A stretch of 64,000 nucleotides of DNA, from IMG/VR virus record IMGVR_UViG_3300028833_000002. One strand, given 5' to 3'. Positions 49,636-61,754 of the stretch are shown here, one piece after another (position 1 is the stretch's first letter; each line of letters opens with the position of its first letter). The position numbers were made by a program, and so were the translations under genes. The notes beneath the pieces were generated by a model that searched no databases, had not been told where the DNA came from, and saw only the letters and a list, made by a program, of their open reading frames with translations. The DNA comes from a virus (lineage: Duplodnaviria; Heunggongvirae; Uroviricota; Caudoviricetes).

Positions 49636-49664
49636 TTGACTTTTTCTTAATTTTATGATATAAT
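49636..49664 (+). promoter_or_regulatory. promoter family copy
   Basis: TTGACT-17-TATGATATAAT. The 20 nt upstream are identical to the copy at 54792. Confidence 0.6.
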
Positions 49665-49698
49665 ATATATAGAAAGTTAAGAGAAAGGACTTGAAAGT

Positions 49699-50469
49699 AT
49701 GACACTTAAAGAAAAAGCTACAAGATTTCTTAATGAAAAGGCATTTGACCTCTTTGAAATGCTCAAAACTACAGAGCTTACAAATGATGAACAGATTGGT
49801 TTAGTTGAATCATTTCAGTTCGAGAAAGCTGGTTATCACCCAGTTTGTGGTATGACTAAGGTTTGCTTTGTTTTTGATGATTTTGTAATCAAGACAAGTT
49901 TTGACTATAAGGTTATGTATCCACTTACTGGCGATGGTGTTTCAAAGAAAGTTATAGAACTCGAAGATGCTTGCGAAACAGAATATCTTGCATACAAAAA
50001 GGCTGTTGAGGAAGGTCTTGGCGACTTCTTCTTTGAAACAGATTATCTTGGTTGTGGTATCTACGTTCAGGAAAGATGTGAAGAATCACTTCAGGACGCT
50101 AGATATTCTAGAGATGAATTTGATTCTGCTACAAAAGAGTATAACGAATATGAAAAAGAGTGCGCAATTGATGCACTTGTAGATTCCATCCCAGAAGAAG
50201 AAGCTGAGATAGATGTTGACGAGTATACAACAGTTGGCGATTCTGTAAGATACGTTGACTCTTATCTTAAAGAAGACTGCGTGACAAACTTCATTCAGAC
50301 ATATGACAGTGGTTCAATGGTTAAACTTGCAAGATTCCTTTTTAATTATGACATCACTGACATTCACGATGGAAACGTTGGCTTCGATAAGGTTGGTAGA
50401 CTTAGAATTTTTGATTTTAGCGGTTTCTGCTCTTCTACAAGAGAGCTGGTGAAAGGAGTAAAGGCATGA
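49699..50469 (+). CDS. hypothetical protein
   Basis: A promoter copy lies upstream. Confidence 0.5.
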   Translation: MTLKEKATRFLNEKAFDLFEMLKTTELTNDEQIGLVESFQFEKAGYHPVCGMTKVCFVFDDFVIKTSFDYKVMYPLTGDGVSKKVIELEDACETEYLAYKKAVEEGLGDFFFETDYLGCGIYVQERCEESLQDARYSRDEFDSATKEYNEYEKECAIDALVDSIPEEEAEIDVDEYTTVGDSVRYVDSYLKEDCVTNFIQTYDSGSMVKLARFLFNYDITDIHDGNVGFDKVGRLRIFDFSGFCSSTRELVKGVKA

Positions 50470-50831
50470 TTTGGTTGATTTTAATGGGTATTACGATTGT
50501 GATAATGATTATTAGTTGTATCAAAACCAAATATTTATGGGCTTTTGTTCTAATATTGTTTGGTTTTGAACTTATAATAGCCGGACATGTTAGATATGAT
50601 GATAAGCCATCTGACATGAATGTGGTAGAAATAACGGCTAAACTTGAATGTGATTCGGATTATCTTAACGTTATGGGTTATACAGAAGCTGTTGAATATA
50701 ATAAACGAGTTGAAATGACACAGAAACTTAGTGATTCTGTATGGTTCGGCGCGATTGTTAGAGGAAAAGATAAAATGGCAGACCCAATACCTCTTGAAAA
50801 CTATAAAATTACCAAAAATTGTAAGGATTAA
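50466..50831 (+). CDS. membrane protein Confidence 0.45.
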   Translation: MIWLILMGITIVIMIISCIKTKYLWAFVLILFGFELIIAGHVRYDDKPSDMNVVEITAKLECDSDYLNVMGYTEAVEYNKRVEMTQKLSDSVWFGAIVRGKDKMADPIPLENYKITKNCKD

Positions 50832-50843
50832 GTTTCTTAACTC

Positions 50844-50872
50844 TTTACAAAATCTGAAATCTATGTTATAAT
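50844..50872 (+). promoter_or_regulatory. promoter family copy
   Basis: TTTACA-17-TATGTTATAAT. Confidence 0.55.
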
Positions 50873-50903
50873 AAATATAGAAAATAAAGAAAGGATGTTG
50901 TTT

Positions 50904-51449
50904 ATGGGACAGGAATTAATAGTTAACTTAGAATTTAAATCCGAAAAAACAAATAAGGTTAATGAGTTTCTTGTTTGCTATTGGAGAAAAGGTTGGAGCA
51001 TGACAGATAAAATCATGAGCACCTTTAAGAAGAGTAAACATAAGATTAGCGAAAGTGAAGATGGTCAGGAGATTGTTCTTCGTGCGAATAGCATTTATGA
51101 CCTTAGAGATTTGCTTTATAAGGAACTCGGTGATACCGAAGCTGATAGTTTCCAGCACTCTTTTTGGGGCGCATATAGATGTTATCAGCAGACCATTTCT
51201 CAGTTCGGAAATGTAAGTGCATGGATTCAGTTTTGGGAAAATCGTTTTAATGTGCTTGATGAACTTGAAAATGCTCAGGCCGATGGCGAATCTCCATGTT
51301 TTGATGGATGTTTTGACCCGGATGCCCTTAATGATATGTTTACACTTTATACAGATAGTGAAGCGACAGATAAGGAAAAGGAATTCATTTGGGTTCTTCA
51401 TCACCTTGATGAAATGGAAGTAACTTTAAAAATTGGAAATTATTTTTAA
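50904..51449 (+). CDS. hypothetical protein
   Basis: The second ATG is used. The first ATG lies inside the conserved leader. Confidence 0.5.
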   Translation: MGQELIVNLEFKSEKTNKVNEFLVCYWRKGWSMTDKIMSTFKKSKHKISESEDGQEIVLRANSIYDLRDLLYKELGDTEADSFQHSFWGAYRCYQQTISQFGNVSAWIQFWENRFNVLDELENAQADGESPCFDGCFDPDALNDMFTLYTDSEATDKEKEFIWVLHHLDEMEVTLKIGNYF

Positions 51450-51452
51450 GTC

Positions 51453-51481
51453 TTTACAAAAACAAAAAATTATGGTATAAT
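51453..51481 (+). promoter_or_regulatory. promoter family copy driving tRNA-Gln(UUG)
   Basis: TTTACA-17-TATGGTATAAT. Confidence 0.55.
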
Positions 51482-51518
51482 AGATATAGAAAGTGAGAGA
51501 GAAATCTCTCACAGATAC

Positions 51519-51591
51519 TGCTCCATAGTGGCAATTGGTAAAACAGCGGAATTTGACTCCGTATTTCCAGGTTCGAATCCTGGTGGGGCAA
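51519..51591 (+). tRNA. tRNA-Gln(UUG)
   Basis: The loop is atTTGac. U1:A72 is present. It has its own promoter at 51453. Confidence 0.65.
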
Positions 51592-51624
51592 TCGAATTTT
51601 TTAATTCAGAAAGGATTTTTAATT

Positions 51625-52035
51625 ATGGGTTATTACACAAATTTTCATATGACAGTAGCAAAGGTTATAGACGGAAGAACAGTAATTCTTGATAAAGAAG
51701 ATGCCGATTATGACAAAATCGCTTGTGCCTTTTATGACATTTGGGAATGTCCAAGTGAAGATGTTCGCAAATCAGAATGGTATCTTGATGAAGCAAGAGA
51801 ACTCTTTGAGGAAATTACCGTTGACGATAAGGAAGGCAAGTGGTATGAATATGAAGAAGATATGATTCGTCTTTCTAAGGAATTCCCGGACTTCACTTTT
51901 GTACTTGAAGGTCGTGGCGAAGAGCGTCCAGACTGGTGGGTAGGAAGTTGGGAAAATGGAATTGGTTCAGTTCACTATGCTAAAATTGTTGAGCCAGAGT
52001 GCCCAATTTGGTATAACCTCCATCCGGATTTCTAA
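51625..52035 (+). CDS. hypothetical protein
   Basis: ATG 51625 follows an AAAGGA ribosome-binding site. The track ORF start at 51535 lies inside tRNA-Gln. Confidence 0.5.
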   Translation: MGYYTNFHMTVAKVIDGRTVILDKEDADYDKIACAFYDIWECPSEDVRKSEWYLDEARELFEEITVDDKEGKWYEYEEDMIRLSKEFPDFTFVLEGRGEERPDWWVGSWENGIGSVHYAKIVEPECPIWYNLHPDF

Positions 52036-52048
52036 GAAACCTTAATTC

Positions 52049-52077
52049 TTTACAAATTCTAAAAATTATGTTATAAT
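52049..52077 (+). promoter_or_regulatory. promoter family copy
   Basis: TTTACA-17-TATGTTATAAT. Confidence 0.55.
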
Positions 52078-52101
52078 AATTATAGAAAATGAGAAAGGAA
52101 C

Positions 52102-52284
52102 TTGATTATGACAAGATGGAATGTAGTTAGAATAAATCCTGAAACAAAGGAAAGAATTCCTCTTCCTGCTTCTTACTCTGATAAGAAATATGCTGAGGAT
52201 TTAGCTAGAGCATTTAATTATGAATGGAAGCATCCTGAAACTGGTTTAGTTTTTAAACTTGAAGTTGAGAGCCGTGAAGTTTAA
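52102..52284 (+). CDS. small protein Confidence 0.4.
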   Translation: MIMTRWNVVRINPETKERIPLPASYSDKKYAEDLARAFNYEWKHPETGLVFKLEVESREV

Positions 52285-52287
52285 TTC

Positions 52288-52316
52288 TTTACAAATTCTA
52301 AATTTTATGGTATAAT
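52288..52316 (+). promoter_or_regulatory. promoter family copy driving the 52.4-53.6 kb tRNA island
   Basis: TTTACA-17-TATGGTATAAT. Confidence 0.55.
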
Positions 52317-52440
52317 AAATATAGAAATTGAGAAAAGAGTATTTCAAAACATTTGTGAAACTTCGGTCCGATTCCGGGGTAGAGTCGCTCTAAGGGGCGA
52401 ACTGCTGGTTGCAATACCAAAGTCAATTTCTTAAATATAT

Positions 52441-52512
52441 AGGTCTTTGGTGTAACGGGAGCATATTCGCCTCCAAAGCGATAAGGTGTGGGTTCAAATC
52501 CTACAGGACCTG
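52441..52512 (+). tRNA. tRNA-Trp(CCA)
   Basis: The loop is ctCCAaa. Confidence 0.6.
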
Positions 52513-52835
52513 TTAATCGTCGTAGGTTCAAGTCCTACCCCCAAAGAATAAAATCTCTGAGGGGACAATCGGAGAGACGAGAGGAGATAACCTCTATAAA
52601 AGAACCATGTTTGCCGACTACACGTTAATATAAGCCGGGAAATTCGCCATCAGCACCACCCATTAAGGTGGATGGACGTGGAAGTAATGGTCCACCTTGG
52701 CACCCAACGTGTCAAGTAGCCGAGAGAATAAATGGCGGAGTAACTCAGACGGCTCTGAGCACTATCTTGAAAATAGTTGGTACCGTGAAGAGCGGTATGG
52801 GGCTCGACACCTCACCTCACTTCGCCGCCAAATAA

Positions 52836-52906
52836 TGCTCCTTAGTGAAGCGGTAACACAGTAGGCCCTGACCCTATAATCGAAGGTTCGAATCCTTCAG
52901 GAGCAA
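52836..52906 (+). tRNA. tRNA-Gln(CUG)
   Basis: The loop is ccCTGac. U1:A72 is present. Confidence 0.6.
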
Positions 52907-52912
52907 TTAAAT

Positions 52913-52986
52913 GCCGTTGTAGCTCAGTTAGTAGTAGCGCGTGTCTGAAGAACACGAGGTCGAAGGTGCAATCCCTTCCGGCGGCA
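52913..52986 (+). tRNA. tRNA-Phe(GAA)
   Basis: The loop is ctGAAga. Confidence 0.65.
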
Positions 52987-53086
52987 CTTAAAGTAATTAT
53001 AAGGATAACCTAGAGTCCTCAGAGTGCGCACCAAGTTCAGAATAAGGTTTCGGTGAAGTCTGAATGTCCTTTGTAATTACTTAGTA

Positions 53087-53159
53087 TGCGACAGTGGCCT
53101 AATGGATAGGGCAGCATCCTTCTAAGATGTTTGGTGAAGGTTCGATTCCTTCCTGTCGC
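53087..53159 (+). tRNA. tRNA-Arg(UCU)
   Basis: The loop is ctTCTaa. Confidence 0.65.
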
Positions 53160-53165
53160 GTTTGA

Positions 53166-53255
53166 TGGTCACATAAGCCTAATGGTAAGGCAGTTGTTTG
53201 CTAAACAATGAGTAATCGGTTATTCCGGTGTTTAGGTTCAAGTCCTAATGTGACC
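53166..53255 (+). tRNA. tRNA-Ser(GCU), type II
   Basis: The loop is ttGCTaa. The variable arm is long. Confidence 0.65.
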
Positions 53256-53265
53256 GCTTTATAAA

Positions 53266-53339
53266 TGACGGTGTGGTGAAGTGGTTTAACGCGGCCGGCC
53301 GCAACCCGGTTATTCGTAGGTTCAAATCCTACCACCGCC
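53266..53339 (+). tRNA. tRNA-Cys(GCA) (tentative)
   Basis: The loop is ccGCAac. There is one acceptor mismatch. Confidence 0.5.
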
Positions 53340-53534
53340 TTATGGGTTCCTTATGATATACAGAGCTATATAGCTATTCATAAGGTTGGATAAAGTGTTA
53401 GATTATTAGCACCGAAAATAAAATTCGATATAAGCCGAAATGTATAATACTAGTCAAAGATTTCGGTGTGCCAGTTTCCAAAGAATTTTGTTAAGTCTTC
53501 GGACGGAACTTTTTAGGGTGAGGGGCACAATTAT

Positions 53535-53618
53535 CGGCGTGTGGCGGAATTGGCAGACGCGCCAGCCTAAGGAGCTGGTGTCCTTCGGGACGTGTGGGTT
53601 CGAGTCCCACCACGCCGA
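53535..53618 (+). tRNA. tRNA-Leu, type II, anticodon AAG as folded (A34 is unusual)
   Basis: The loop is ctAAGga. The variable arm is long. Confidence 0.55.
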
Positions 53619-53639
53619 CTTTATCTTGAAAACTTAATA

Positions 53640-54236
53640 AAAAGTATGTTGTAACCATGTGTTAAAATGAGGGACTAATCATCTCTGCATGGGCGCGGCG
53701 GAACGGCTGAGAGGTCGGGTCAAGGGATACCTTGACAGGGTTTCTTTTCTGATGTTGAAAGGCTGAGGAACAAGATGGTATACCAGCCATCAAGAGAGAA
53801 GTCGCGGCACAAGGACAACGTGAGTAATGGCACACCTAACCTGGTTGCTCCAACAATAGACGCTCTCTGTGAGAGAATAACCCCGTAGACCACATCCGCA
53901 AGATGTGAGTAAATGCTGGGAACGCAAAATAATGGAGTTGAGCCGAGAACGGCTTGAAAAAGCTGGAATAAACCCGATGGTGGTGCGAGTAGCCCAAGGC
54001 TTAGACTGGTTATTAGATTTCTATAATTTAAGGAAAATCTGAACGATGGGTGAAAGTTGGAGGTAAACAAATCCTCTCAGTGCTTTAGGTTCTTCGGAAC
54101 TGCGGTAAGAAGTTTTAGAGCGACGGCTTTAAGGCTCAGACTTATCGTCACTGTGGCTGAATAATACGTAGCGTTGTTTAAGTATGGCGAACAAAAACCA
54201 GCAATGTATTTTTTATTAGGTTTTCAAGATAGATAT
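53640..54236 (+). ncRNA. ~600-nt non-coding, GC-enriched, structured region inside the tRNA island (unknown RNA; candidate group-I-intron-like or Y-RNA-like element)
   Basis: Stops are dense in all three + frames. Many complementary segments are present (for example gggatacc...ggtataccagcc). The only ORF is a minus-strand one (53720-54070) with no ribosome-binding site. Confidence 0.3.
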
Positions 54237-54309
54237 GCCCTCATAGCTCAGTTGGCAGAGCACCGTCTTGATAAGGCGGGTGTCGAAGGTTCAATCCCTT
54301 CTGAGGGCA
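54237..54309 (+). tRNA. tRNA-Ile(GAU)
   Basis: The loop is ttGATaa. Confidence 0.7.
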
Positions 54310-54312
54310 CTG

Positions 54313-54393
54313 TGCCGGAGGCCGAATAGTGTAGTGGTTAGCACGCCAAGAGATACAGACTTGGAAACAGCGGTTCAAATCCGCTTTGGGTGG
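54313..54393 (+). ncRNA. tRNA-like element with canonical D- and T-arms, unpaired acceptor and a 9-nt anticodon-position loop
   Basis: tagtgtagtggttagcac and agcgg-ttcaaat-ccgct are present. I could not close an acceptor helix. Confidence 0.3.
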
Positions 54394-54791
54394 ACCGGAC
54401 TTAAAAGCGCTAGTCCAGTAAGTGCATTGCTGCCATATTAATGCTTAATATGGTTCGAGCCATAGAAATATGGTGAAAGTCCCTTTGATGATACAGCCAG
54501 AAGGGCGGAGAGCGAGTAAGTCTTATAGGTCGCGGCCTATAAGTACCGAGGACATGCAAAACTGATGTTATGGAATATCCCGGCACCGTGTTGTCGTTAG
54601 AGATGCATCAGGCTCACACACGGATATGTGCCTATAATTCAATGGTAGAATAGCGGTCTTTGTGAAAATAGTTTAATGTAAAACTTTGAACCGAATGGTT
54701 TGAAATATGAGTTCGATTCTCATTTTTCGCGCTAAACCGTCTATCCCAGTTCAACTCTGGGTGGGCGCACTTTGGAAAAATTTATAAAATA

Positions 54792-54820
54792 TTGACTTTT
54801 ACTAAAAACTATGTTATAAT
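54792..54820 (+). promoter_or_regulatory. promoter family copy (ahead of the candidate R-M pair)
   Basis: TTGACT-17-TATGTTATAAT followed by the leader. Confidence 0.6.
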
Positions 54821-54851
54821 ATATATAGAAAATCAAGAAAGGAAGATTTTA

Positions 54852-55382
54852 ATGGAAAGGCAAGCGCACGGATTCTCTTTTGAACAATATGCCACAAAGA
54901 AATATGGAATTGAATTAAACAGTGATTATACTGGAAAATGGGATGGCTTATATTGTGGAGAACCAATCTCAATTAAAATTGAGAAAAAGGGTAGCGATAT
55001 AGAAATGGCAGATATATTTAGAAACATGGATATAGATAGCAATTTCTATTTACTTGTTGGGTTTTGGGACGGAACAAAAGATAATGTCACTGATGAATTT
55101 TTGCTTCACGTTGACTGCAATGAATATGCAAGTTTGTTTAATAAGGAAATGAGTTATAAATTTAAAACCTTACTTAATAGTATTACCAATGACCACGGCG
55201 ATGATGAAAAATGGAAAAAAGAAATTTCAATCTTAAAAAGAGAATGGAAAGACTCTACTCCAAATCTTATTCGTCCACGTTTTAAGCGTGACCACAAGAC
55301 TCAAAAAAGAATACAGTGTGCGATTAATAATAAAGACTTTTATAATTATTTTATTCCAAAATATGAGGTGAACCAAATATGA
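54852..55382 (+). CDS. small PD-(D/E)xK-like protein (candidate restriction or nicking nuclease)
   Basis: ATG 54852 follows an AAAGGAAG ribosome-binding site. The segment WDGLY...IEKK fits D...ExK. It overlaps the MTase gene by 4 nt. Confidence 0.4.
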   Translation: MERQAHGFSFEQYATKKYGIELNSDYTGKWDGLYCGEPISIKIEKKGSDIEMADIFRNMDIDSNFYLLVGFWDGTKDNVTDEFLLHVDCNEYASLFNKEMSYKFKTLLNSITNDHGDDEKWKKEISILKREWKDSTPNLIRPRFKRDHKTQKRIQCAINNKDFYNYFIPKYEVNQI

Positions 55383-56200
55383 GTGGAGAGACCAAAAGTC
55401 TTGGTCAAAAAGATTTAGCAGACCGCTTTTATACGAAAGATTCAGTAGCCAAACAGTGTGTAGATTATTTAAACACATTGGTTGATACAACAAATGCCCA
55501 TTTTATAGAACCAAGTGCAGGGGCGGGAGCATTTTTACCTTATCTTAATAAATATGATGCTTTTGATATTCTTCCAGCCTCTGATAATATAATTAAGGCT
55601 GATTGGCTTAAACTTGATAAGACAAAATTGTATAGCGATGATTATCTAAACATAATCATTGGCAATCCGCCTTTTGGAGTCCAAGGCAATATGGCGATTA
55701 AATTTTTTAATGCGTCAAAAGAAGCGGACTATATTGCTTTTATACTTCCAAAATCTTTTAGAAAGCCTTCTATTCAAAATCAACTTGACCCTTATTTCAA
55801 GTTAATTGGAGAAATTGACATTCCCGAAAAAAGCTTTATCTTTAATGGAAAAGATTATGGTGTCAATTGCACTTTTCAAGTCTGGAAAAAGGAAGAGGTT
55901 CCTCGTAAAAAAGTAAAGGGGAAAATTGTTTCTAAATACTTTGATTTTACAAAAGACAAAAGTAAAGCAACTTGTTCAGTAAGAAGGGTTGGAGCTTCAG
56001 CCGGGAAAGCAAGTAAAAACTTAGAATATTCAGAACAAAGTAATTATTTTATAATCAATAAAACTTCAATGAATGATGAGGACTTCATTGATTTTCTTAA
56101 TAATCTTGCACACGAAAGGGCAGAAAATGCTGTTGGCCCCAAATCATTATCAAAAACTGAATTTATTGAAGACTTTGAAGCTTCTTATAACGGTTCGTAA
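55379..56200 (+). CDS. DNA N6-adenine (amino) methyltransferase
   Basis: Motif I is EPSAGAGAF. Motif IV is GNPPF. Confidence 0.65.
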   Translation: MSGETKSLGQKDLADRFYTKDSVAKQCVDYLNTLVDTTNAHFIEPSAGAGAFLPYLNKYDAFDILPASDNIIKADWLKLDKTKLYSDDYLNIIIGNPPFGVQGNMAIKFFNASKEADYIAFILPKSFRKPSIQNQLDPYFKLIGEIDIPEKSFIFNGKDYGVNCTFQVWKKEEVPRKKVKGKIVSKYFDFTKDKSKATCSVRRVGASAGKASKNLEYSEQSNYFIINKTSMNDEDFIDFLNNLAHERAENAVGPKSLSKTEFIEDFEASYNGS

Positions 56201-56229
56201 AAATTGCTTTTCCAAAAAATTAGGAAAAC

Positions 56230-56258
56230 TTGACTTTTTCCAAAACTTATGTTATAAT
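56230..56258 (+). promoter_or_regulatory. promoter family copy
   Basis: TTGACT-17-TATGTTATAAT. The leader is identical to the 54792 copy. Confidence 0.6.
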
Positions 56259-56289
56259 ATATATAGAAAATCAAGAAAGGAAGATTTTA

Positions 56290-56541
56290 ATGTATATTTC
56301 AGTACAGTTTAGAAACAAATTCAATGATTTTTCCGGCAAAGAGTATGATTTTGAAGTTGTCGGTGGCGTTCCTAAAATGGGTTCAGTTATCCGAATGGTT
56401 TCAGAAGACATGACTAAAAAGGTATGTAATGGCACGAGAGTTAAGGTTGTCGGTGTTAAAACCGTTTCTTCAACTTCTCAGGAAAGGGTAAGATGTATTT
56501 TGGCATCAATGAATGAGCCATCTATTAGTAAGGAGAGATAA
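56290..56541 (+). CDS. hypothetical protein
   Basis: ATG 56290 follows the leader. The track start lies inside the promoter. Confidence 0.45.
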   Translation: MYISVQFRNKFNDFSGKEYDFEVVGGVPKMGSVIRMVSEDMTKKVCNGTRVKVVGVKTVSSTSQERVRCILASMNEPSISKER

Positions 56542-56542
56542 T

Positions 56543-56872
56543 ATGTATTTAATAACTCTTGAATATATTGATTCTATTGGTTCTCCATTAGAAACTTATC
56601 TTTTCAGAAATCGCGGCGAAGCATGGAGATTTTTTAAGGATAAAATGCTTGAAATACTTACCGAGGAAATTCTCTATGGAGATACCGCAAACGATTGTGA
56701 CGGCGTTCGATTAAAGGATAATCTTGATGATGAAGTTTATTACCTTATTGGTAAGGATGGCGCAAGATTAGATATGTTACCAAAAGAGCTTGATGAAGAC
56801 TTTGGTTATATTGAATTCTATGTTTCAAATTACATTTCTATAATTATTAGAGATATAGAGTTTGAAGATTGA
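56543..56872 (+). CDS. hypothetical protein
   Basis: An AAGGAG ribosome-binding site is present. Confidence 0.45.
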   Translation: MYLITLEYIDSIGSPLETYLFRNRGEAWRFFKDKMLEILTEEILYGDTANDCDGVRLKDNLDDEVYYLIGKDGARLDMLPKELDEDFGYIEFYVSNYISIIIRDIEFED

Positions 56873-56885
56873 AAAAGTGAAAGAC

Positions 56886-56914
56886 TTTACAAAATCTGAA
56901 ATTTATGTTATAAT
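56886..56914 (+). promoter_or_regulatory. promoter family copy
   Basis: TTTACA-17-TATGTTATAAT followed by the leader. Confidence 0.55.
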
Positions 56915-56945
56915 AAATATAGAAAGTTAAGAGAGGAGAAAACAA

Positions 56946-57149
56946 ATGGAACAGATTTCTTGGGAAAAGGCAAAAGAGATTGTTGATGAAGTTTACGGTA
57001 GTGGCTGGAGTTTGGTTGATGAAGATGAGGACGAATTCATTTGTCCGGAATGCGAAGACCCAATTCTCAGAGAAGATTATCCAATCTTAGATTTTTGCCG
57101 CGAAAATAAGACATTCATTTGTCCGGTTTGTGAAAATGAAATCGGTTAA
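56946..57149 (+). CDS. zinc-ribbon protein
   Basis: CPECEDP...CPVCENE. Confidence 0.45.
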   Translation: MEQISWEKAKEIVDEVYGSGWSLVDEDEDEFICPECEDPILREDYPILDFCRENKTFICPVCENEIG

Positions 57150-57159
57150 AGTGAAAGGC

Positions 57160-57188
57160 TTGACTTTTCTTGAAAGTTATGTTATAAT
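57160..57188 (+). promoter_or_regulatory. promoter family copy (first of a tandem pair)
   Basis: TTGACT-17-TATGTTATAAT. Confidence 0.55.
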
Positions 57189-57243
57189 TAATACATAATA
57201 AATACAAAGAAAGTTCAAATCGAAAACTTAAAAAGTGAAAGGC

Positions 57244-57272
57244 TTGACTTTCTTTGAAGATTATGTTATAAT
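57244..57272 (+). promoter_or_regulatory. promoter family copy (second of the tandem pair; ahead of the GIY-YIG gene)
   Basis: TTGACT-17-TATGTTATAAT. Confidence 0.55.
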
Positions 57273-57320
57273 TAATACATAATAAATACAAAACAATAAA
57301 TAAAAAGGAGCTGATTAGTT

Positions 57321-57950
57321 TTGGCATACATTTATAAAATCACAAATCTTATCAATGGCAAACTTTATATAGGTAAAACTTATAATTCTATTTAGGAAAG
57401 ATTTAAAGAGCATTGTAAAGATAGTCAAAGAGAACGATGCGAAAAAAGACCTTTATATAGTGCCATGAGAAAATATGGAACTGAAAATTTCACAATAGAA
57501 TTAATTGAGGAAACTTCTGTTCCAGAGGAGAGAGAAAAATATTGGATTGAATATTATGGTTCTTTCAAAAATGGTTATAATGCAACAATAGGCGGTGACG
57601 GGAAACCTTATATAGATAGAGATTTGGTAGTTGCCACTTATAAAGCTACATTAAATCAGGCAGAGGTTGCAAGAATTATGAATATTTCTACTGATAGCGT
57701 TAGTTTAATTCTTAAAGAAAAAGATGTAGACACAATTCCCTCTACTCTAGTTAGCCAAAGAGTTAATGGTAAAGTTGTAAATCAATATTCTCTTGATGGT
57801 GAATATATACAATCTTTTCCGTCAGCTTTAGCGGCGGCAAGAGCTTTAGGGAAAATAACTCCAACATCTAAAGGTGCTTCTTCTCAAATCTCTTCAGTTT
57901 GTAGAGGTAAAAGGAAAAGTGCTTATGGATACAAGTGGAGTTGGGGATAA
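57321..57950 (+). CDS. GIY-YIG homing-endonuclease-like protein; TTG start; 1 in-frame TAG
   Basis: YIYKITNLINGKLYIGKT...R...E...N are present. An AAGGAG ribosome-binding site lies 11 nt before TTG 57321. The gene is next to the tRNA island. Confidence 0.55.
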
Positions 57951-58092
57951 ATTATTCCCAACAAATATACGGGGCGCGGGACTGCAAGGGGTGGTCATCT
58001 GTCTTGCAAACAGAAAATCAGCTGGATTCGATTTCCAGGCGCTCCACTTATCATCCGGCTTGGTGAAGCCTTTGAATTCACCGTCCTTTCTT

Positions 58093-58164
58093 GGCCCTAT
58101 CGTCTAGCGGTTAGGACGTCAGCTTTTCACGCTGAAAACCCCAGTTCGATTCTGGGTAGGGTCA
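58093..58164 (+). tRNA. tRNA-Glu(UUC)
   Basis: The loop is ttTTCac. Confidence 0.7.
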
Positions 58165-58253
58165 TCAGATTGAAGCAGACTTGACGCTTACTTCGTAAGT
58201 TTTTGGGTACTTATACAGAAAAAATCAGCGTCATACATATTCTCAATCTTTAT

Positions 58254-58327
58254 GGGAGATTAGCTCAGCTGGTCAGAGCGGAACCCTGTTAAGGTTACGG
58301 TCATAGGTTCAAATCCTATATCTCCCG
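58254..58327 (+). tRNA. tRNA-Asn(GUU)
   Basis: The loop is ctGTTaa. Confidence 0.6.
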
Positions 58328-58331
58328 CTAT

Positions 58332-58402
58332 GGTCTATTCGTTCAACGGTAGGACGGCCGACTGTCTATCGGCAGATAGGGGTTCGATTCCCCTATGGAC
58401 CG
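58332..58402 (+). tRNA. tRNA-Asp(GUC)
   Basis: The loop is ctGTCta. Confidence 0.65.
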
Positions 58403-58493
58403 CTTAGTATCCGATTCGTTACTTGGACGTATTCCAAGCCAATTCCACAAATTACGACGGACGGCTCTACTAATCCATTAATTTAATTTATAT

Positions 58494-58564
58494 AGAGGAT
58501 GTGGTGTAATGGGAGCATACTTCATTTGGGGTGAAGGGGAGCAGTTCAAATCTGACATCTTCTA
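58494..58564 (+). tRNA. tRNA-Pro(UGG)
   Basis: The loop is ttTGGgg. Confidence 0.6.
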
Positions 58565-58570
58565 TCGTAT

Positions 58571-58639
58571 GAAGTGAGGGCAAATGGTAAGTCATTTAGT
58601 TACAAACTAAAAGGAGTGGGTTCGATTCCCATCGCTTCT
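58571..58639 (+). tRNA. atypical tRNA, anticodon ACA as folded (3-bp D-stem)
   Basis: The acceptor is gaagtga/tcgcttc. The loop is ttACAaa. Confidence 0.35.
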
Positions 58640-58642
58640 TTC

Positions 58643-58712
58643 GCGGCGAGGACAAATGGAAAGTCGCCGTCCTCATAAGTCGGAGATAGTAGGTTCGATT
58701 CCTACCGCCGCA
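58643..58712 (+). tRNA. tRNA-Met/fMet/Ile2 (CAU)
   Basis: The loop is ctCATaa. The 5' acceptor is formed by a copy of the TCGCGGCGA motif. Confidence 0.6.
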
Positions 58713-59014
58713 ATCGGTCGTCGCAGACCAAGTATTGGTTGCTATTAACCAATTTAGAGTGTAGATGGTGAATGGTCTTCTACATAGTCCATCATACTCT
58801 ACCAGACACAGTAGAAGAGTGGGTTGGAAGTTTTTTATCATGTTTCTTACAAAAATACATGGTTGACAGGTAGACCAAAGAGAGCCTACTGCTGAACGAG
58901 GAGAGAGGACGTTCCGGTTTTCCCACTAGCACCGTAACGTTAGTAGGGAGCGGAGCACTGCTCAGTGTGTGGTCGTTGGCGGGATGGAGTCATCGTGAAC
59001 AAGAATTCCATCCA

Positions 59015-59098
59015 AATTTATGGACAAGTGTGGAAAGCGGCGAAACCAGCGGACTGTAAATCCGTGACATTAGAAACACCGAAGGTTCGAGTCCTTCC
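59015..59098 (+). tRNA. tRNA-Tyr(GUA), type II
   Basis: The loop is ctGTAaa. Confidence 0.7.
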
Positions 59099-59342
59099 TT
59101 GTCCATTATGTTGAAGCAGTTTAATGAGATACTTCATAACAGAATTTAAGGATGACACATTCTATTATATTTGATTTCTCGTCAAGAAATCGCGGCTAGC
59201 CCAAGGCAGAAATTGGGCATTTACTTCTCATTAAGACATTCTCAACAGTTATTTTTTAAAATTGACAGAAGCAGTATGAACACTTACTTCATTAGACATG
59301 CAATCTGATTTTTAGTCGTGTTCGTTATATTCTCTGTCCTCA

Positions 59343-59413
59343 GCAGATGTAGTTTAATGGTAAAACCTCCGGCCTCCACCCGGAAAATATGAGTCCGATT
59401 CTCATTATCTGCT
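59343..59413 (+). tRNA. tRNA-Gly(UCC)
   Basis: The loop is ccTCCac. Confidence 0.65.
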
Positions 59414-59429
59414 TTAGCCGAAGCATTAG

Positions 59430-59507
59430 AAAACGGTTACTTCAATTGGTTTGAAAATTTCTTTGCTCAGAAATAGTGCGGTTCGAGTCCGTTTAACCCG
59501 TTTTCAC
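59430..59507 (+). ncRNA. tRNA-like element: perfect 7-bp acceptor (gaaaacg/cgttttc), T-arm-like GGTTCGAGTCC, non-canonical anticodon region (6-bp stem with 6-nt loop, or 8-nt loop)
   Basis: Hand fold. Confidence 0.3.
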
Positions 59508-59604
59508 CTTTCTCGGTCATTAGTTTTAAGTCGATGCAATATATACGGTTACTTCGACAGCCTGTTAACCTGTAATTGATACCTTCCGTATATAATTTTC
59601 TCGA

Positions 59605-59677
59605 CTATATGCTCCTGTAGCACAATTGGTAGTGCGCGAAACTTGTAATTTCGAGGTTCTCGGTCCGAGTCCGAGTG
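59605..59677 (+). tRNA. tRNA-Thr(UGU)
   Basis: The loop is ctTGTaa. Confidence 0.7.
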
Positions 59678-59685
59678 GGAGCTTA

Positions 59686-59716
59686 AATAATGACCGGATA
59701 GTTTAACTGTCCGGTC
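59686..59716 (+). terminator. rho-independent terminator closing the tRNA island
   Basis: Hairpin gaccgga/tccggtc followed by TTTTTT. Confidence 0.6.
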
Positions 59717-59726
59717 TTTTTTATTC

Positions 59727-59755
59727 TTTACTTTTAAAAGAAATTATGTTATAAT
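59727..59755 (+). promoter_or_regulatory. promoter family copy (ahead of 59788 and Ro60)
   Basis: TTTACT-17-TATGTTATAAT followed by TTATAGAAAGTTAAGAGAGGAAAAG. Confidence 0.55.
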
Positions 59756-59787
59756 AATTATAGAAAGTTAAGAGAGGAAAAGTGAGT

Positions 59788-60081
59788 ATGACAACACCAC
59801 AATGTTTTGAAATAATCTCAGAAGAAAAACTCAGATTAATGCCCACGAAAAATCTTATAGACCTTATGAGAGTTTATGATTATATTCGCCCCGATTACAC
59901 ATATGACTGCTATTGGAGCAATTGCAGATGCCAAAAGGCTTGTAAGGCTCTTCGCCGCGAAATGGCAATGAGAATTTACACAATTCTCAAAACAAGACCT
60001 CACATCCCAAATAAGGCAGAAGCTAAGAAAATAAGACAAGAACGTGCGGCAAAGAGATTTAAGACAACATCCGCAAGATAA
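59788..60081 (+). CDS. basic Cys-containing protein immediately upstream of the Ro60 gene
   Basis: A ribosome-binding site and a promoter copy are present. Confidence 0.45.
   Translation: MTTPQCFEIISEEKLRLMPTKNLIDLMRVYDYIRPDYTYDCYWSNCRCQKACKALRREMAMRIYTILKTRPHIPNKAEAKKIRQERAAKRFKTTSAR
59951..59961. repeat. exemplar TTCGCCGCGAA
   Basis: Perfect palindrome inside a CDS. Confidence 0.6.
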
Positions 60082-60098
60082 TTAAGGAGGACGATATT

Positions 60099-61754
60099 AT
60101 GAGCAGAATAGCAAGAGAAATTAAGGCAGAAAACAAGACAAAGAACACAGTAACAAACTTTATGGGCGGCAAGTCTTATACAATTAATCCGATTGATACG
60201 CTTAAATTAGTTGCGGCTTCATCAATCTTTGGTGAACCATCTTATTACCGTTCAAATGTAAGAGAAGCAAGATACCGTTGCGACAGACTGGTTGAAAACT
60301 TCTTTCCAGATTACATTGGTAAGACAACAACAGAAATCTTTGAAGATGTAATTGACAATGCTCTTTCTTATGATTTCGGCGCAACACTCGAATTTGCCGC
60401 AGAACTTAGAAATACCTATAATATGAGATTAAACCCACAGGTAATCATGGTTCGTGCCGCAATCCACGAGGGTAGAGCAAAGTTCACATCTGAAAACCCT
60501 GGTCTTTTCGCGGCAATAAATGATAAGGTAATGGCAAGAGCAGATGAACCAGCAACTCAGCTTGCATATTACATCTACAAGAACGGCGGCAAGTCAAAGC
60601 TCCCATCTGTATTAAAGAGAAGCATTGCTGATAAGCTCTCAAAGCTCGATGCATATGCGGTTAATAAGTATAAAAATGCTGAAATCGGCATGATAAATGC
60701 CGTTCGTCTTACACACGCAAATTCTCCAGTGTTAGATGACCTCTTAAATGACAATTTAAAGGTTTCAGATGCCGACGAAACATGGGAACAGAAGCGCTCA
60801 CGCGGCATGGGTTGGAAGGAAATCTTCAACTCAACAAACATGGGACACATGGCACTTTTAAGAAACCTTAGAAACGTTTTCGAGGAAGTTGAAGATATTA
60901 ACTTCGCTAAGAAATACCTTAAGAAGTTAAAGGATGGTGTACTTCGCGGCAAGCAGTTCCCATTCAGATACTACACAGCAATGGGTGTTATCGAAGCATC
61001 AAGAGTTAACTACAAGTCCCTTATCCTCGATACTCTTGAAGAATGTATGGATATTGCTATCGACAATATGCCAAAGTTAAAGGGTAAGACAATGTGCTTA
61101 TCTGATAACAGTGGTTCTGCTTGGGGCGGTATCACATCAGAGTATGGTAGCGTTGTAGTCGCCGAAATCGACAACCTTTCTTCTGTAATTGCTGGAAAGC
61201 TCTCAGACGAAGGTTATGTTGGTAAGTTCGGTGATAAGTTAAAGGTCTTCCCAGTTTCCAAGAGAAATGGATGCTTAATTCAGGCAAAGGAAATCAGCAG
61301 AGATAAGTCTCACGATGTTGGTGGTTCTACTGAAGGCGGCATTTGGGAGTTCCTTATCAACGCAATCAATGATGGTGAGTTCTACGATAATATCTTTATC
61401 TTCTCTGATATGCAGGCTGGACACGGTGGCCTTTACGGCACATCGGTTCAGATGAGCAGATACAGCAGCAAGTATGGTGTTGATGGTGGACGTTATATCG
61501 ACGTTTACAAGTTAGTTAAGGAATACCGTCAGAAGGTAAACCCAAAGGTCAATGTCTTCATGGTGCAGACTGCCGGCTACAACAACGTAATCTTACCAGA
61601 ATACTCTTACAGAACTGCTATCCTCTCCGGATGGACAGGTAAGGAAGTTAGCTTCGCGGCAGACTTCATTAAGAGATGGGATGATATTGAGGACAGACAG
61701 AACGCCCCAAGGCAGAAGTCAAGGTCAAATCTTCCACCAGTAAGATATAGATAA
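60099..61754 (+). CDS. rsr: Ro60/Rsr orthologue (TROVE domain plus vWA/MIDAS)
   Basis: The TROVE signature is GGKSYTINPIDTLKLVAASSIFGEPSYY. The C-terminal MIDAS is DNSGSAW. The size is about 551 aa. An AAGGAGG ribosome-binding site is present. Confidence 0.75.
   Translation: MSRIAREIKAENKTKNTVTNFMGGKSYTINPIDTLKLVAASSIFGEPSYYRSNVREARYRCDRLVENFFPDYIGKTTTEIFEDVIDNALSYDFGATLEFAAELRNTYNMRLNPQVIMVRAAIHEGRAKFTSENPGLFAAINDKVMARADEPATQLAYYIYKNGGKSKLPSVLKRSIADKLSKLDAYAVNKYKNAEIGMINAVRLTHANSPVLDDLLNDNLKVSDADETWEQKRSRGMGWKEIFNSTNMGHMALLRNLRNVFEEVEDINFAKKYLKKLKDGVLRGKQFPFRYYTAMGVIEASRVNYKSLILDTLEECMDIAIDNMPKLKGKTMCLSDNSGSAWGGITSEYGSVVVAEIDNLSSVIAGKLSDEGYVGKFGDKLKVFPVSKRNGCLIQAKEISRDKSHDVGGSTEGGIWEFLINAINDGEFYDNIFIFSDMQAGHGGLYGTSVQMSRYSSKYGVDGGRYIDVYKLVKEYRQKVNPKVNVFMVQTAGYNNVILPEYSYRTAILSGWTGKEVSFAADFIKRWDDIEDRQNAPRQKSRSNLPPVRYR

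What the first reader, a model, noticed from the sequence alone, without database searches (positions are those of the whole stretch)
53640..54236. ~600-nt structured non-coding block inside the tRNA island
There is no plausible ORF on either strand. The only candidate is a minus-strand 116-aa ORF with no ribosome-binding site. The block is GC-enriched relative to its surroundings and has many long-range complementary segments.

Candidates are a group I intron relic, a large Y-RNA-like or other Ro60 substrate, or a ribozyme.
Basis: seen in the sequence. Interest (0 to 1): 0.55.

Follow-up and report, generated by a model that had tools for sequence, protein, structure and literature searches.

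The report
ROOL RNA in phage tRNA island
The ~600-nt non-coding block is a full-length copy of ROOL RNA, a known large phage and bacterial RNA that builds hollow RNA-only cages and still has no known function, so it is real but an ordinary member of a known family.

Summary
In detail: window 53631-54219 (+) is a non-coding, strand-specifically structured RNA gene between tRNA-Leu and tRNA-Ile. It is not an intron relic, Y RNA or known ribozyme. Rfam identifies it as ROOL RNA (RF03087): 285 bits against a gathering score of 99.1, E 3e-64, model 1-574 of 574, untruncated.

Ten other ROOLs are only 45-51% identical to it (one is 92%), yet keep 75-85% of the 159 model pairs. Of the window's 133 canonical pairs, 118 show a compensatory double change in at least one homologue. 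A structure-blind MAFFT alignment of 11 closer relatives (76-94% identical; rumen or gut metagenomes, two Firmicutes MAGs) also supports the fold. Two pseudoknots are intact.

ROOL is the best-conserved block (94%) between this phage and its nearest relative. The 116-aa minus-strand ORF is broken in that relative. No promoter-like site lies between 52316 and 54792, so ROOL is probably co-transcribed with the flanking tRNAs and cut out by tRNA processing.

By homology it should form a homo-oligomeric nanocage. Its biological role is unknown.

The one departure is loop L18, the published inter-half-shell kissing loop. It reads GACG instead of the usual UCGCU or UAGCU, a rare lineage-wide variant.

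Novelty is low: a new member of a known family.

The parts
53631..54219 (+). ROOL RNA gene (RF03087), full length, 589 nt
   Evidence: cmscan gives 285 bits (gathering score 99.1), E 2.7e-64, model 1-574/574, not truncated. Covariation supports the fold.
53637..53652 (+). 5' strand of closing helix P1 (16 bp)
   Evidence: Projected from the Rfam consensus structure. All 16 pairs are canonical or G-U. The unconstrained MFE fold recovers the helix. It is 95% paired in alignment A1 (helix 1).
54201..54216 (+). 3' strand of closing helix P1
   Evidence: Same evidence as the 5' strand.
53853..53880 (+). Invariant ROOL core: ACAAUAGACGC, a small hairpin, then AGAAUAA
   Evidence: These columns are invariant in all 11 ROOLs aligned to the model. 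Used as a search pattern, the core retrieved at least 119 IMG/VR contigs.
53940..53944 (+). Pseudoknot 1, 5' strand (GAGCC)
   Evidence: Pairs with 53998-54002. Found de novo as the strongest covarying non-nested helix, with 19 extra pair types over 7 columns and 57/73 cells paired. It is 96% paired in A1 (helix 16).
53998..54002 (+). Pseudoknot 1, 3' strand (GGCUU), at the 5' edge of the linker loop
54004..54037 (+). Variable AU-rich linker, equivalent to the disordered loop that faces the cage interior in the solved structures
   Evidence: Of the 53 model columns that differ from the 94%-identical relative L096, 31 fall in this loop, together with indels. It aligns to the unconserved loop of the model. 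The interior, disordered location comes from PMC12286853.
54038..54042 (+). Pseudoknot 2, 5' strand (UCUGA), at the 3' flank of the linker
   Evidence: Complementary to UCAGA at 54136-54140. Four columns were scored and pair in 44/44 cells across the 11 ROOLs and 100% in A1 (helix 20). The fifth pair, A54042-U54136, is read from the sequence; U54136 is already paired in the model structure. The pairing is invariant, so it shows conservation rather than covariation.
54136..54140 (+). Pseudoknot 2, 3' strand (UCAGA), in internal loop J17/18
   Evidence: PMC12286853 says J17/18 was previously proposed to pair with the linker flank.
54103..54147 (+). P17/P18 hairpin. Its cap L18 is GACG at 54122-54125, closed by C54121-G54126
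   Evidence: The helix CGGUAAG/CUUAUCG is paired in 77/77 cells in a register one position off the printed Rfam consensus. The P18 stem covaries in A1 (helix 26). Only 2 of 103 ROOLs sampled have the GACG loop.
53535..53619 (+). tRNA-Leu(AAG), ending 11 nt upstream of ROOL
   Evidence: ARAGORN and Rfam. Its 3' processing probably defines the ROOL 5' end (inference).
54237..54310 (+). tRNA-Ile(GAU), starting 17 nt downstream of ROOL
   Evidence: RNase P cleavage at its 5' end probably defines the ROOL 3' end (inference).
52288..52316 (+). Promoter-like site (TTTACA, 17 nt, TG-TATAAT; 11 of 12 matches), the nearest one upstream of ROOL
   Evidence: It is one of ten near-identical + strand sites in 49-58 kb. 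None lies between 52316 and 54792. This is a consensus match only and has not been tested.

Best explanation
Window 53631-54219 (+) encodes a ROOL RNA (Rumen-Originating, Ornate, Large; Rfam RF03087) carried by a large, uncultivated phage of the rumen or gut.

Shown here:
- It is a full-length, well-scoring member of the family.
- Its fold is maintained by compensatory substitutions.
- Two pseudoknots are intact.
- It is under stronger constraint than anything else in the surrounding tRNA island.

Inferred from the sequence context:
- It is transcribed with the flanking tRNAs as one precursor, from the promoter-like site at 52288-52316.
- It is released by the host's tRNA-processing enzymes: 3' processing of tRNA-Leu 11 nt upstream, and RNase P cleavage at tRNA-Ile 17 nt downstream.

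Inferred by homology to the solved structures (env-120 octamer PDB 9MDS, E. faecalis octamer 9J3T, L. salivarius hexamer 9J6Y):
- The monomer folds flat and self-assembles without protein into a hollow dihedral homo-oligomeric cage about 28 nm across.
- The variable linker (54004-54037) faces the interior.

The biological role of ROOL is unknown for the whole family. My best guess, at about 0.3, is an RNA compartment or scaffold that serves the phage's tRNA and translation takeover programme. It might store or shield tRNA-like RNAs or ribosomal components, or act as a decoy for host RNA-targeting defences.

Approximate confidence by layer: identity as ROOL about 0.97; cage formation about 0.7, because loop L18 is atypical; the specific role about 0.3.
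For: - Family match: cmscan gives 285 bits against a gathering score of 99.1, E 2.7e-64, model 1-574/574.
- Fit to the model: 133 of 158 projected pairs are canonical. The window matches 149 of 191 strongly conserved consensus positions, within the 144-166 range of ten other ROOLs. All invariant motifs are present.
- Model-based alignment of 11 ROOLs, transcribed from cmscan output and verified base by base:
  - Nine of the ten homologues are 45-51% identical to the window, yet each keeps 75-85% of the pairs.
  - 80.8% of cells pair, against 38-46% with slid partners and 53.8% in shuffles (0 of 300 reach the observed value).
  - 118 window pairs show a double change in at least one homologue.
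- Structure-blind MAFFT alignment A1 (11 distinct sequences, 76-94% identical):
  - 85% of cells pair, against 38-47% when slid.
  - 39 pairs change on both sides, against 23.1 +/- 2.7 in shuffles (0 of 500).
- Strand specificity: z = -2.92 on the + strand, -0.32 on the - strand.
- Pseudoknots are present.
- Constraint: ROOL is the best-conserved block (94.3%) against the related phage L120, where other blocks are 70-93%. Changes relative to L096 concentrate in the linker and mostly preserve pairing.
- Context is typical of the family: 12 of 16 ROOL loci have same-strand tRNAs and none has an opposite-strand tRNA. ROOL often abuts a tRNA within 0-40 nt.
- No promoter-like site lies between 52316 and 54792.
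- Family properties come from PMC5737381, PMC12286853, PMC12990946 and PMC12515178.
Against: - No expression data exist for this locus.
- Promoter and processing sites are consensus or positional inferences only.
- Loop L18 forms the symmetric kissing contact between the two half-shells (bridge B6) in the solved structure and is called highly conserved there. Here it is a 4-nt GACG loop instead of UCGCU or UAGCU, so the stoichiometry, or even closure of the cage, may differ.
- One hairpin (53745-53771) has a 3-bp internal mismatch relative to the model.
- The model-based alignment leans towards the model's structure by construction.
- The lineage alignment was retrieved with a pattern that includes L18, so L18 invariance within it means nothing.
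- Function is unknown for the whole family. ROOL was reported non-essential in L. salivarius, and the analogous GOLLD RNA was dispensable for phage production (PMC12286853, PMC7567579).
Confidence: 0.93

Rival explanations
1. A Y-RNA-like RNA or other client of the phage's Ro60 (TROVE) protein. ROOL would be bound by, or scaffold, the Ro60-like protein encoded about 5.9 kb downstream, as Y RNA and YrlA do for bacterial Rsr.
For: - A TROVE-domain protein is encoded at 60099-61754 (Pfam E 2.5e-8; PHROG 'RNA-binding protein' E 8e-49; 54% identical to Bacillus phage G gp540).
- The ROOL-TROVE arrangement is kept in the related phages L120 and L135.
- No Y-RNA candidate was found near the TROVE gene by Rfam.
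Against: - None of the 119 other ROOL-motif loci has a TROVE homologue in its flanks (tblastn at E <= 1e-5). The flanks are only 1-15 kb, and the three phages that share the arrangement are one lineage.
- ROOL is about 590 nt with an unrelated architecture, whereas Y RNAs are about 100 nt.
- ROOL assembles without protein, and no protein partner is known (PMC12286853).
- The TROVE gene appears to be a separate unit, preceded by a terminator-like hairpin and promoter-like sites at 59692-59816.
Confidence: 0.03
2. A group I or II intron relic, or another self-cleaving or catalytic RNA.
For: The RNA is large and highly structured with pseudoknots. The discoverers noted that large ornate RNAs often turn out to be catalytic (PMC5737381).
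Against: - No intron, RNase P or ribozyme family matches this stretch at E <= 1, whereas ROOL matches at E 4e-65.
- Both flanking tRNAs are intact, so no host gene is interrupted.
- No catalytic activity has been reported for ROOL, and the solved structures show a cage rather than an active site (PMC12286853).
Confidence: 0.02
3. A decaying, non-functional ROOL remnant carried passively in the tRNA array.
For: - Its score of 285 bits is in the lower half of the 245-398 bit range seen in other phage ROOLs.
- L18 departs from the consensus.
- One hairpin has internal mismatches.
Against: - It covers the model end to end with no truncation.
- It is the most conserved segment between related phages.
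- Substitutions relative to L096 and across the 76-94% lineage preserve pairing.
- The GACG variant is shared by many contigs of different sub-lineages, all full-length ROOLs of 252-285 bits.
Confidence: 0.03
4. A protein-coding gene: the 116-aa minus-strand ORF at 53720-54070.
For: An open frame of 116 codons with a TTG start exists.
Against: - In L096, which is 94% identical, the N-terminal part is in another frame and stop codons intervene.
- All other genes and all 26 tRNAs in the window are on the + strand.
- The conservation pattern follows RNA pairing, not codons.
- The SD-like string lies 1 nt from the start codon.
Confidence: 0.01

Closest known systems
ROOL RNA (Rfam RF03087; Weinberg et al. 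2017, PMC5737381). Solved structures: env-120 octamer 9MDS, E. faecalis octamer 9J3T, L. salivarius hexamer 9J6Y
   Same: - Full-length model match, with a length of 589 nt against the family mean of 581.
- The same nested helices, with compensatory changes.
- The pseudoknots, the invariant ACAAUAGACGC...AGAAUAA core and a variable internal linker.
- Location inside a same-strand tRNA array in a phage from a rumen or gut source.
   Different: - The L18 cap is GACG, closed by C-G, instead of UCGCU or UAGCU (2 of 103 sampled).
- The P3b-like hairpin at 53745-53771 has an internal mismatch block.
- Sequence identity to ROOLs outside its own lineage is only 45-51%.
- The oligomeric state is untested.
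GOLLD RNA (large ornate RNA of phages and prophages; 14-mer cage, 9MEE)
   Same: It has the same genomic habit, in phages and prophages next to tRNA arrays, and the same kind of RNA-only cage with a disordered interior linker. Its function is also unknown (PMC12286853).
   Different: Its sequence and fold are unrelated, it is larger (700-830 nt), and its stoichiometry differs. There is no GOLLD match in the window.
Y RNA / YrlA, the RNA partners of Ro60 (Rsr)
   Same: These are non-coding RNAs found near tRNA-like elements, and a TROVE/Ro60-like gene is present in the same phage.
   Different: - Y RNAs are about 100 nt, with a Ro-binding stem formed by the two ends and, in YrlA, a tRNA-like module. 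ROOL is about 590 nt with a different architecture.
- There is no Rfam match to Y RNA here.
- ROOL elsewhere is not accompanied by TROVE genes.
phi29 prohead RNA (pRNA)
   Same: It is a phage-encoded RNA that works as a symmetric homo-oligomer held together by intermolecular loop-loop pairs (PMC12990946).
   Different: pRNA is about 120-170 nt and forms a ring on the portal as part of the DNA-packaging motor. ROOL forms a closed protein-free cage with no known link to packaging.

Membership tests
ROOL RNA (RF03087) | Covariance-model score above the curated gathering threshold, over the whole model | tested here: met
   285 bits against 99.1, E 2.7e-64, model 1-574/574, no truncation.
ROOL RNA (RF03087) | Conserved ornate secondary structure (multistem junctions) maintained by compensatory changes | tested here: met
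   133 of 158 model pairs are canonical. 118 of them show double changes in at least one of 10 homologues, and 80.8% of cells pair against 38-46% when slid. The sequence-only alignment A1 gives 85% against 38-47%, with 39 double-change pairs and 0 of 500 shuffles reaching that.
ROOL RNA (RF03087) | Pseudoknots (three in the 2017 description) | tested here: inconclusive
   Two are present and were recovered de novo: 53940-44 with 53998-54002 (covarying), and 54038-42 with 54136-40 (invariant). I could not locate the third without the published diagram.
ROOL RNA (RF03087) | Highly conserved nucleotides and core motifs | tested here: met
   The window matches 149 of 191 strongly conserved consensus positions; other ROOLs match 144-166. 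All multi-nucleotide motifs invariant across the 11 ROOLs are present.
ROOL RNA (RF03087) | Length about 580 nt with a variable, unconserved internal linker | tested here: met
   The RNA is 589 nt. The linker at 54004-54037 takes most of the differences from the 94%-identical relative.
ROOL RNA (RF03087) | Genomic context: phage or prophage, near tRNA genes | tested here: met
   It lies 11 nt after tRNA-Leu and 17 nt before tRNA-Ile, in a window with 26 same-strand tRNAs. Other ROOL loci show the same habit.
ROOL RNA (RF03087) | Conserved L18 loop forming the symmetric inter-half-shell kissing contact (bridge B6) | tested here: not met
   The window has GC-GACG-GC. Of 103 ROOLs sampled, 75 have GG-UCGCU-CC, 12 have UAGCU and 7 have UAGCG. 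This is a structural detail of solved members, not a criterion of the Rfam family. A CG dinucleotide that could still self-pair remains.
ROOL RNA (RF03087) | Protein-free assembly into a dihedral hexameric or octameric nanocage | not testable with these tools
   Needs in vitro transcription plus mass photometry or cryo-EM. Inferred only by homology (PMC12286853, PMC12990946).
ROOL RNA (RF03087) | Abundant stable transcript | not testable with these tools
   No RNA-seq is available. Only a promoter-like site at 52288-52316 and the absence of intervening promoter-like or terminator-like sites are seen.
Group I / II intron | Match to intron models and interruption of a host gene with flanking exons | tested here: not met
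   No intron family matches at E <= 1 in 51000-60500. Both neighbouring tRNAs are intact.
Y RNA / YrlA (Ro60 partner) | An RNA of about 100 nt with a Ro-binding terminal stem, adjacent to and co-occurring with rsr/TROVE | tested here: not met
   There is no Y RNA match. The RNA is 589 nt. The TROVE gene is 5.9 kb away behind its own promoter-like sites. No TROVE homologue occurs in the flanks of 119 other ROOL-motif loci.
GOLLD RNA | Match to the GOLLD model (conserved 3' domain) | tested here: not met
   No GOLLD hit appears in either the gathering or the E-value scan.

The most novel reading that the evidence does not exclude
In this phage lineage ROOL may not act alone. It could be the RNA partner or substrate of the co-resident RNA-maintenance set: the Ro60/TROVE-like protein at 60099-61754, the polynucleotide-kinase-like protein at 23029-23991 and the Rnl1-type RNA ligase at 44413-45534. 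It might, for example, act as a giant Y-RNA-like scaffold or as a cage that holds tRNAs for repair.

A second, more modest reading is that the lineage-specific GACG L18 loop changes the inter-half-shell contact. The RNA would then assemble into a different stoichiometry, or an open half-cage, rather than the published closed octamer.
Probability: 0.05. Interest if true: 0.7.

Novelty: new member of a known kind. Interest (0 to 1): 0.25.

Why it matters
ROOL is one of the few natural RNAs known to build a closed, protein-free cage larger than a ribosome, and nobody knows what it is for.

This locus adds no new kind of element. It does supply a clean natural context: a large rumen phage in which ROOL is flush between tRNAs and more conserved than the tRNAs themselves. 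The same genome carries 26 tRNAs, a suppressor tRNA, an RNA ligase, a polynucleotide kinase-like protein and a Ro60-like protein.

It also defines a sub-lineage of about 20 contigs in which the loop that bridges the two half-cages is remodelled. That gives structural biologists a natural variant with which to test what sets cage closure and stoichiometry.

For annotation, the practical point is that a standard Rfam scan explains this block.

Tried and rejected
- **blastn and megablast against GenBank phages.** Neither the ROOL nor the first 25 kb of the window matched. The phage is uncultivated, and ROOLs are too divergent for BLAST.
- **Sequence-only MAFFT alignment of distant ROOLs.** It gave 1293 columns and only about 60% pairing, so it was too poor for covariation. 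I replaced it with cmscan alignments, transcribed and verified against the loci. I later added a MAFFT alignment of closer relatives.
- **Motif-bearing loci without ROOL.** Five of 20 representative loci carrying the core motif had no ROOL. They had no Rfam hit at all even at E 0.01. I judge them chance matches to the 18-base pattern, not a divergent family.
- **Register corrections to the printed Rfam consensus.**
  - P17 (54103-09 with 54141-47) and GGAGG/CCUCU (54059-63 with 54073-77) hold: 99-100% paired in A1.
  - My third 'fix' (53822-26 with 54164-68) was wrong for this lineage: 5.5% paired (helix 9).
- **A possible loop-loop pairing.** UAC at 53728-30 could pair with GUA at 54063-65. 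Both sides are invariant, and the literature gives L3a a different partner, so I make no claim.
- **TROVE or Rnl1 co-occurrence with ROOL.** None was found in 119 loci. A search for TROVE relatives in viral contigs found only the same phage lineage.
- **Neighbouring non-coding gaps as known RNAs.** Rfam at E <= 10 gave nothing for 54394-54661, and at E <= 1 nothing for 52514-52835. The folds score z = -0.68 and -1.92.
- **tmRNA reading of 54320-54732.** Rejected: ARAGORN finds none, and the outer ends cannot form an acceptor stem.
- **TAG recoding by the suppressor tRNA.** There is no clear sign of it: 12 of 60 long + strand frames end in TAG.

Full report
**Observation.**
- It lies between tRNA-Leu(AAG) at 53535-53619 and tRNA-Ile(GAU) at 54237-54310, inside a run of same-strand tRNA genes.
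- The only sizeable ORF is the minus-strand 116-aa frame at 53720-54070, which starts with TTG.
- GC is 0.443 against 0.376 for the window. That is no higher than the tRNA island around it, at 0.457.
- The + strand folds clearly better than shuffles: -175.3 kcal/mol, z = -2.92, 0 of 100 shuffles as good.
- The - strand does not: z = -0.32. Structure on one strand only points to a transcribed RNA rather than a DNA-level repeat.

**Identity.** A gathering-threshold scan of the whole window against Rfam 15 gives one non-tRNA hit. It is RF03087, ROOL RNA, at 53631-54219 (+): 285 bits against a gathering score of 99.1, E 2.7e-64, model positions 1-574 of 574, not truncated.
- An E-value-mode scan of 51000-60500 returns nothing else for this stretch. 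No group I or II intron, RNase P, tmRNA, Y RNA or HEARO appears at E <= 1.
- I projected the model's consensus structure onto the window. Of 158 pairs, 133 are canonical or G-U, including a 16-bp closing helix (53637-53652 with 54201-54216). An unconstrained MFE fold shares 83 of those pairs.
- The window matches 149 of 191 strongly conserved consensus positions. Ten other ROOLs match 144-166.
- It carries every multi-nucleotide motif that is invariant across those ROOLs, including ACAAUAGACGC...AGAAUAA at 53853-53880.

**Relatives and covariation, distant set.** The core motif retrieved at least 119 IMG/VR viral contigs.
- I reduced them to 24 representatives and scanned 20. Fifteen carry full-length ROOLs of 245-398 bits. 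The other five have no Rfam hit at all and are best read as chance matches.
- BLAST aligns only the short cores of these ROOLs to the window. One close relative, L096, is 94% identical.
- A sequence-only MAFFT alignment of the distant set was too poor to use.
- I therefore transcribed the cmscan alignments of ten ROOLs and checked each against its locus sequence.
- Nine of the ten are only 45-51% identical to the window over model columns, yet each keeps 75-85% of the 159 model pairs.
- Overall, 80.8% of cells pair. The figure is 38-46% when the 3' partners are slid by 1-3 columns and 53.8% in column shuffles; 0 of 300 shuffles reach the observed value.
- 118 of the window's 133 canonical pairs show a change on both sides in at least one homologue.
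- This alignment is fitted to the model, so it leans towards the model's structure.

**Relatives and covariation, close set.** To remove that bias I searched for closer relatives with a lineage-specific pattern.
- It found 13 metagenome contigs, 6 viral contigs and 2 MAG contigs: a 180-kb contig binned as Eubacterium sp. from yak reticulum, and an Oscillospiraceae MAG.
- All eleven loci scanned, including both MAG contigs, carry full-length ROOLs of 252-285 bits inside tRNA arrays.
- A plain MAFFT alignment (A1) has 11 distinct sequences, 76-94% identical to the window.
- On it, 85.0% of cells pair, against 38-47% when slid.
- 39 pairs change on both sides, against 8-15 when slid and 23.1 +/- 2.7 in shuffles (0 of 500).
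- The covariation score is 0.205 against 0.112 in shuffles.
- One helix in the structure I supplied was a mistaken register change of my own and scored 5.5% paired. It does not affect the conclusion.

**Tertiary elements.** I scanned the 11-sequence model alignment for non-nested helices.
- The strongest is a covarying pseudoknot between GAGCC (53940-53944) and GGCUU (53998-54002), at the 5' edge of the linker loop. It shows 19 extra pair types over 7 columns.
- A second, invariant pairing joins UCUGA (54038-54042) to UCAGA (54136-54140). The Kretsch paper describes this same pairing, between the linker flank and internal loop J17/18, as previously proposed.
- Both hold in A1, at 96% and 100% paired.
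- The scan also showed that the printed Rfam consensus is one position out of register for helix P17. CGGUAAG/CUUAUCG pairs in 77 of 77 cells in the shifted register.

**Selection and coding.**
- Against the related phage (L120, the same contig as L096), ROOL is the best-conserved syntenic block at 94.3%. The other syntenic blocks, which include tRNAs and coding sequence, run from 70 to 93%.
- Of 53 model columns that differ from L096, 31 lie in the linker loop.
- Among the 11 affected pairs, 7 keep pairing through a change on one side and 1 is a full compensatory swap (U-A to C-G). Two are non-canonical in both sequences, and 2 open at a helix end.
- The minus-strand ORF is not conserved. In L096 its N-terminal part is in a different frame and stop codons intervene.

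**Expression model (inferred).**
- The region has ten near-identical promoter-like sites (TTTACA or TTGACT, 17 nt, TG-n-TATAAT; 11 of 12 matches), all on the + strand. One is at 52288-52316 and the next is at 54792-54820.
- Between them there is no other strong site and no convincing terminator. ROOL would therefore be made as part of one tRNA precursor.
- ROOL starts 11 nt after tRNA-Leu and ends 17 nt before tRNA-Ile.
- In other loci ROOL often abuts a same-strand tRNA within 0-40 nt, and none of 16 loci has an opposite-strand tRNA.
- The simplest reading is that tRNA 3' processing and RNase P define its ends. This has not been tested.

**What ROOL does.**
- Weinberg et al. (PMC5737381) described the family in 2017. 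[quoted passage not shown]
- Cryo-EM later showed that ROOL assembles without protein into a dihedral nanocage about 28 nm across. It is an octamer for env-120 and E. faecalis ROOL and a hexamer for L. salivarius ROOL.
- The variable linker lies disordered inside the cage (PMC12286853, PMC12990946, PMC12515178).
- No function is known. ROOL was abundant but non-essential in L. salivarius.
- By homology, the window's RNA most likely forms such a cage.
- I guess, with low confidence, that it serves the phage's tRNA and translation programme.

**The one departure.**
- L18 caps the P17/P18 hairpin. The Kretsch paper gives it as the symmetric base-paired bridge (B6) between the two half-shells and calls it highly conserved.
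- I extracted this hairpin from 103 ROOLs chosen by a motif unrelated to L18. Seventy-five read GG-UCGCU-CC, 12 read UAGCU and 7 read UAGCG.
- Only the window and L096 read GC-GACG-GC, a 4-nt loop.
- The variant is not a one-off. About 20 contigs share it, including a group whose ROOL aligns to the window by BLAST only around P18.
- The P18 stem beneath the loop covaries (helix 26).
- Invariance of L18 within that set is meaningless, because the search pattern contained the loop.
- Whether the variant changes cage closure or stoichiometry cannot be decided here.

**The Ro60 idea.**
The ORF at 60099-61754 encodes a TROVE-domain protein that is 54% identical to Bacillus phage G gp540. Related phages keep the same arrangement.
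- However, no TROVE homologue lies in the flanks of the 119 other ROOL-motif loci.
- The TROVE gene has its own promoter-like sites after a terminator-like hairpin.
- ROOL also looks nothing like a Y RNA. I rate this reading at a few per cent.

**Verdict.** This is a genuine, full-length ROOL RNA in a rumen or gut phage. It is a new member of a known family, notable only for its remodelled L18 loop and its RNA-rich genomic company. A standard Rfam annotation would have labelled it. Interest is low to moderate.

Noticed in passing
window 60099-61754 (+): This 551-aa ORF encodes a TROVE-domain (Ro60/Rsr-like) protein. Its best annotated relative is Bacillus phage G gp540 (54% identity). A terminator-like hairpin (59692-59716) and promoter-like sites (59727-59816) precede it. 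Rfam finds no Y-RNA-like partner anywhere in the window.
   Followed up: partly
window 23029-23991 (+) and 44413-45534 (+): A polynucleotide-kinase-like protein (PHROG 505/6931) and a T4 Rnl1-type RNA ligase (PF09511, E 9e-17) are encoded here. Together they resemble the T4 tRNA-repair pair, in a genome that also carries 26 tRNAs, ROOL and a Ro60-like protein.
   Followed up: partly
window 41466-42602 (+): This ORF is an adenylosuccinate-synthetase homologue that hits the PHROG labelled '2-aminooxy adenylosuccinate synthetase' (PurZ-like, E 5.5e-34). Its best relatives are in an uncultured human-gut phage (37.5%), Rhizobium phages and mycobacteriophages. Whether it is a true PurZ, which would imply a 2-aminoadenine genome, was not tested.
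   Followed up: partly
window 24714-24788 (+): A tRNA with anticodon CUA (an amber suppressor; ARAGORN calls it tRNA-Pyl) sits far from the main tRNA islands. TAG still ends 12 of 60 long + strand frames, and reading through TAG does not extend frames more than reading through other stops, so there is no clear sign of recoding in this window.
   Followed up: partly
window 54320-54732 (+): Two aberrant tRNA-like elements lie here. The one at 54320-54393 has a 9-nt anticodon loop and two acceptor mismatches; Rfam gives 38.8 bits and ARAGORN misses it. The one at 54662-54731 has a good acceptor, D and T arms, but its anticodon arm is replaced by a 7-bp stem with a 4-nt loop. They flank a 268-nt GC-rich non-coding spacer lying in a block (54233-54854) that is 83.6% identical in the related phage. 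The spacer has no Rfam match and a fold z-score of -0.68. It is not a tmRNA.
   Followed up: partly
window 52514-52835 (+): This 322-nt non-coding gap (GC about 0.49) follows tRNA-Trp. It opens with a T-arm-plus-acceptor-like fragment (GUAGGUUCAAGUCCUAC-CCCCA). The stretch 52580-52707 is 89% conserved in the related phage. The fold z-score is -1.92 and there is no Rfam match at E <= 1.
   Followed up: partly
window 49636-57272 and at least 18 sites across the window (e.g. 22967, 28546, 32883, 38516, 44140, 61983): A ~50-nt promoter cassette (TTTACA or TTGACT, 17 nt, TG-n-TATAAT) is repeated many times, always on the + strand. It was seen in both the promoter scan and the BLAST self-matches with L096.
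   Followed up: partly
window 54852-56200 (+): Two ORFs sit directly after the tRNA island: a 176-aa ORF of unknown function and a 273-aa ORF (PHROG 5172, with a weak DNA-methyltransferase-like hit). Both are absent from the related phages L096/L120 and L135, so this is an insertion or deletion at the island boundary.
   Followed up: no
L037 2665-3068, L078 3426-3737, L041 5658-6081, L011 1537-1961, L127 1765-2113: Several other ROOL-bearing phage contigs carry a tmRNA gene on the ROOL strand, inside the tRNA array. In four of the five it lies a few hundred nt to 2 kb downstream of ROOL. In L127 it lies about 6 kb upstream. The window has none.
   Followed up: no
Rfam RF03087 consensus, model positions about 421-438 and 461-506 (window 54059-54077 and 54102-54149): As printed by cmscan, the consensus structure is one position out of register for two helices. 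The shifted registers pair in 49/55 and 77/77 cells across 11 ROOLs and covary.
   Followed up: yes
L135 (JAGCPW010000095.1, 180 kb, 'MAG: Eubacterium sp.', yak reticulum): A contig binned into a Firmicutes MAG is a close relative of the window's phage, with 82-99% identity in syntenic blocks covering the tRNA island, ROOL and the TROVE gene. It is either a prophage or a phage contig mis-binned into the MAG. It suggests a rumen origin and a Firmicutes host.
   Followed up: partly
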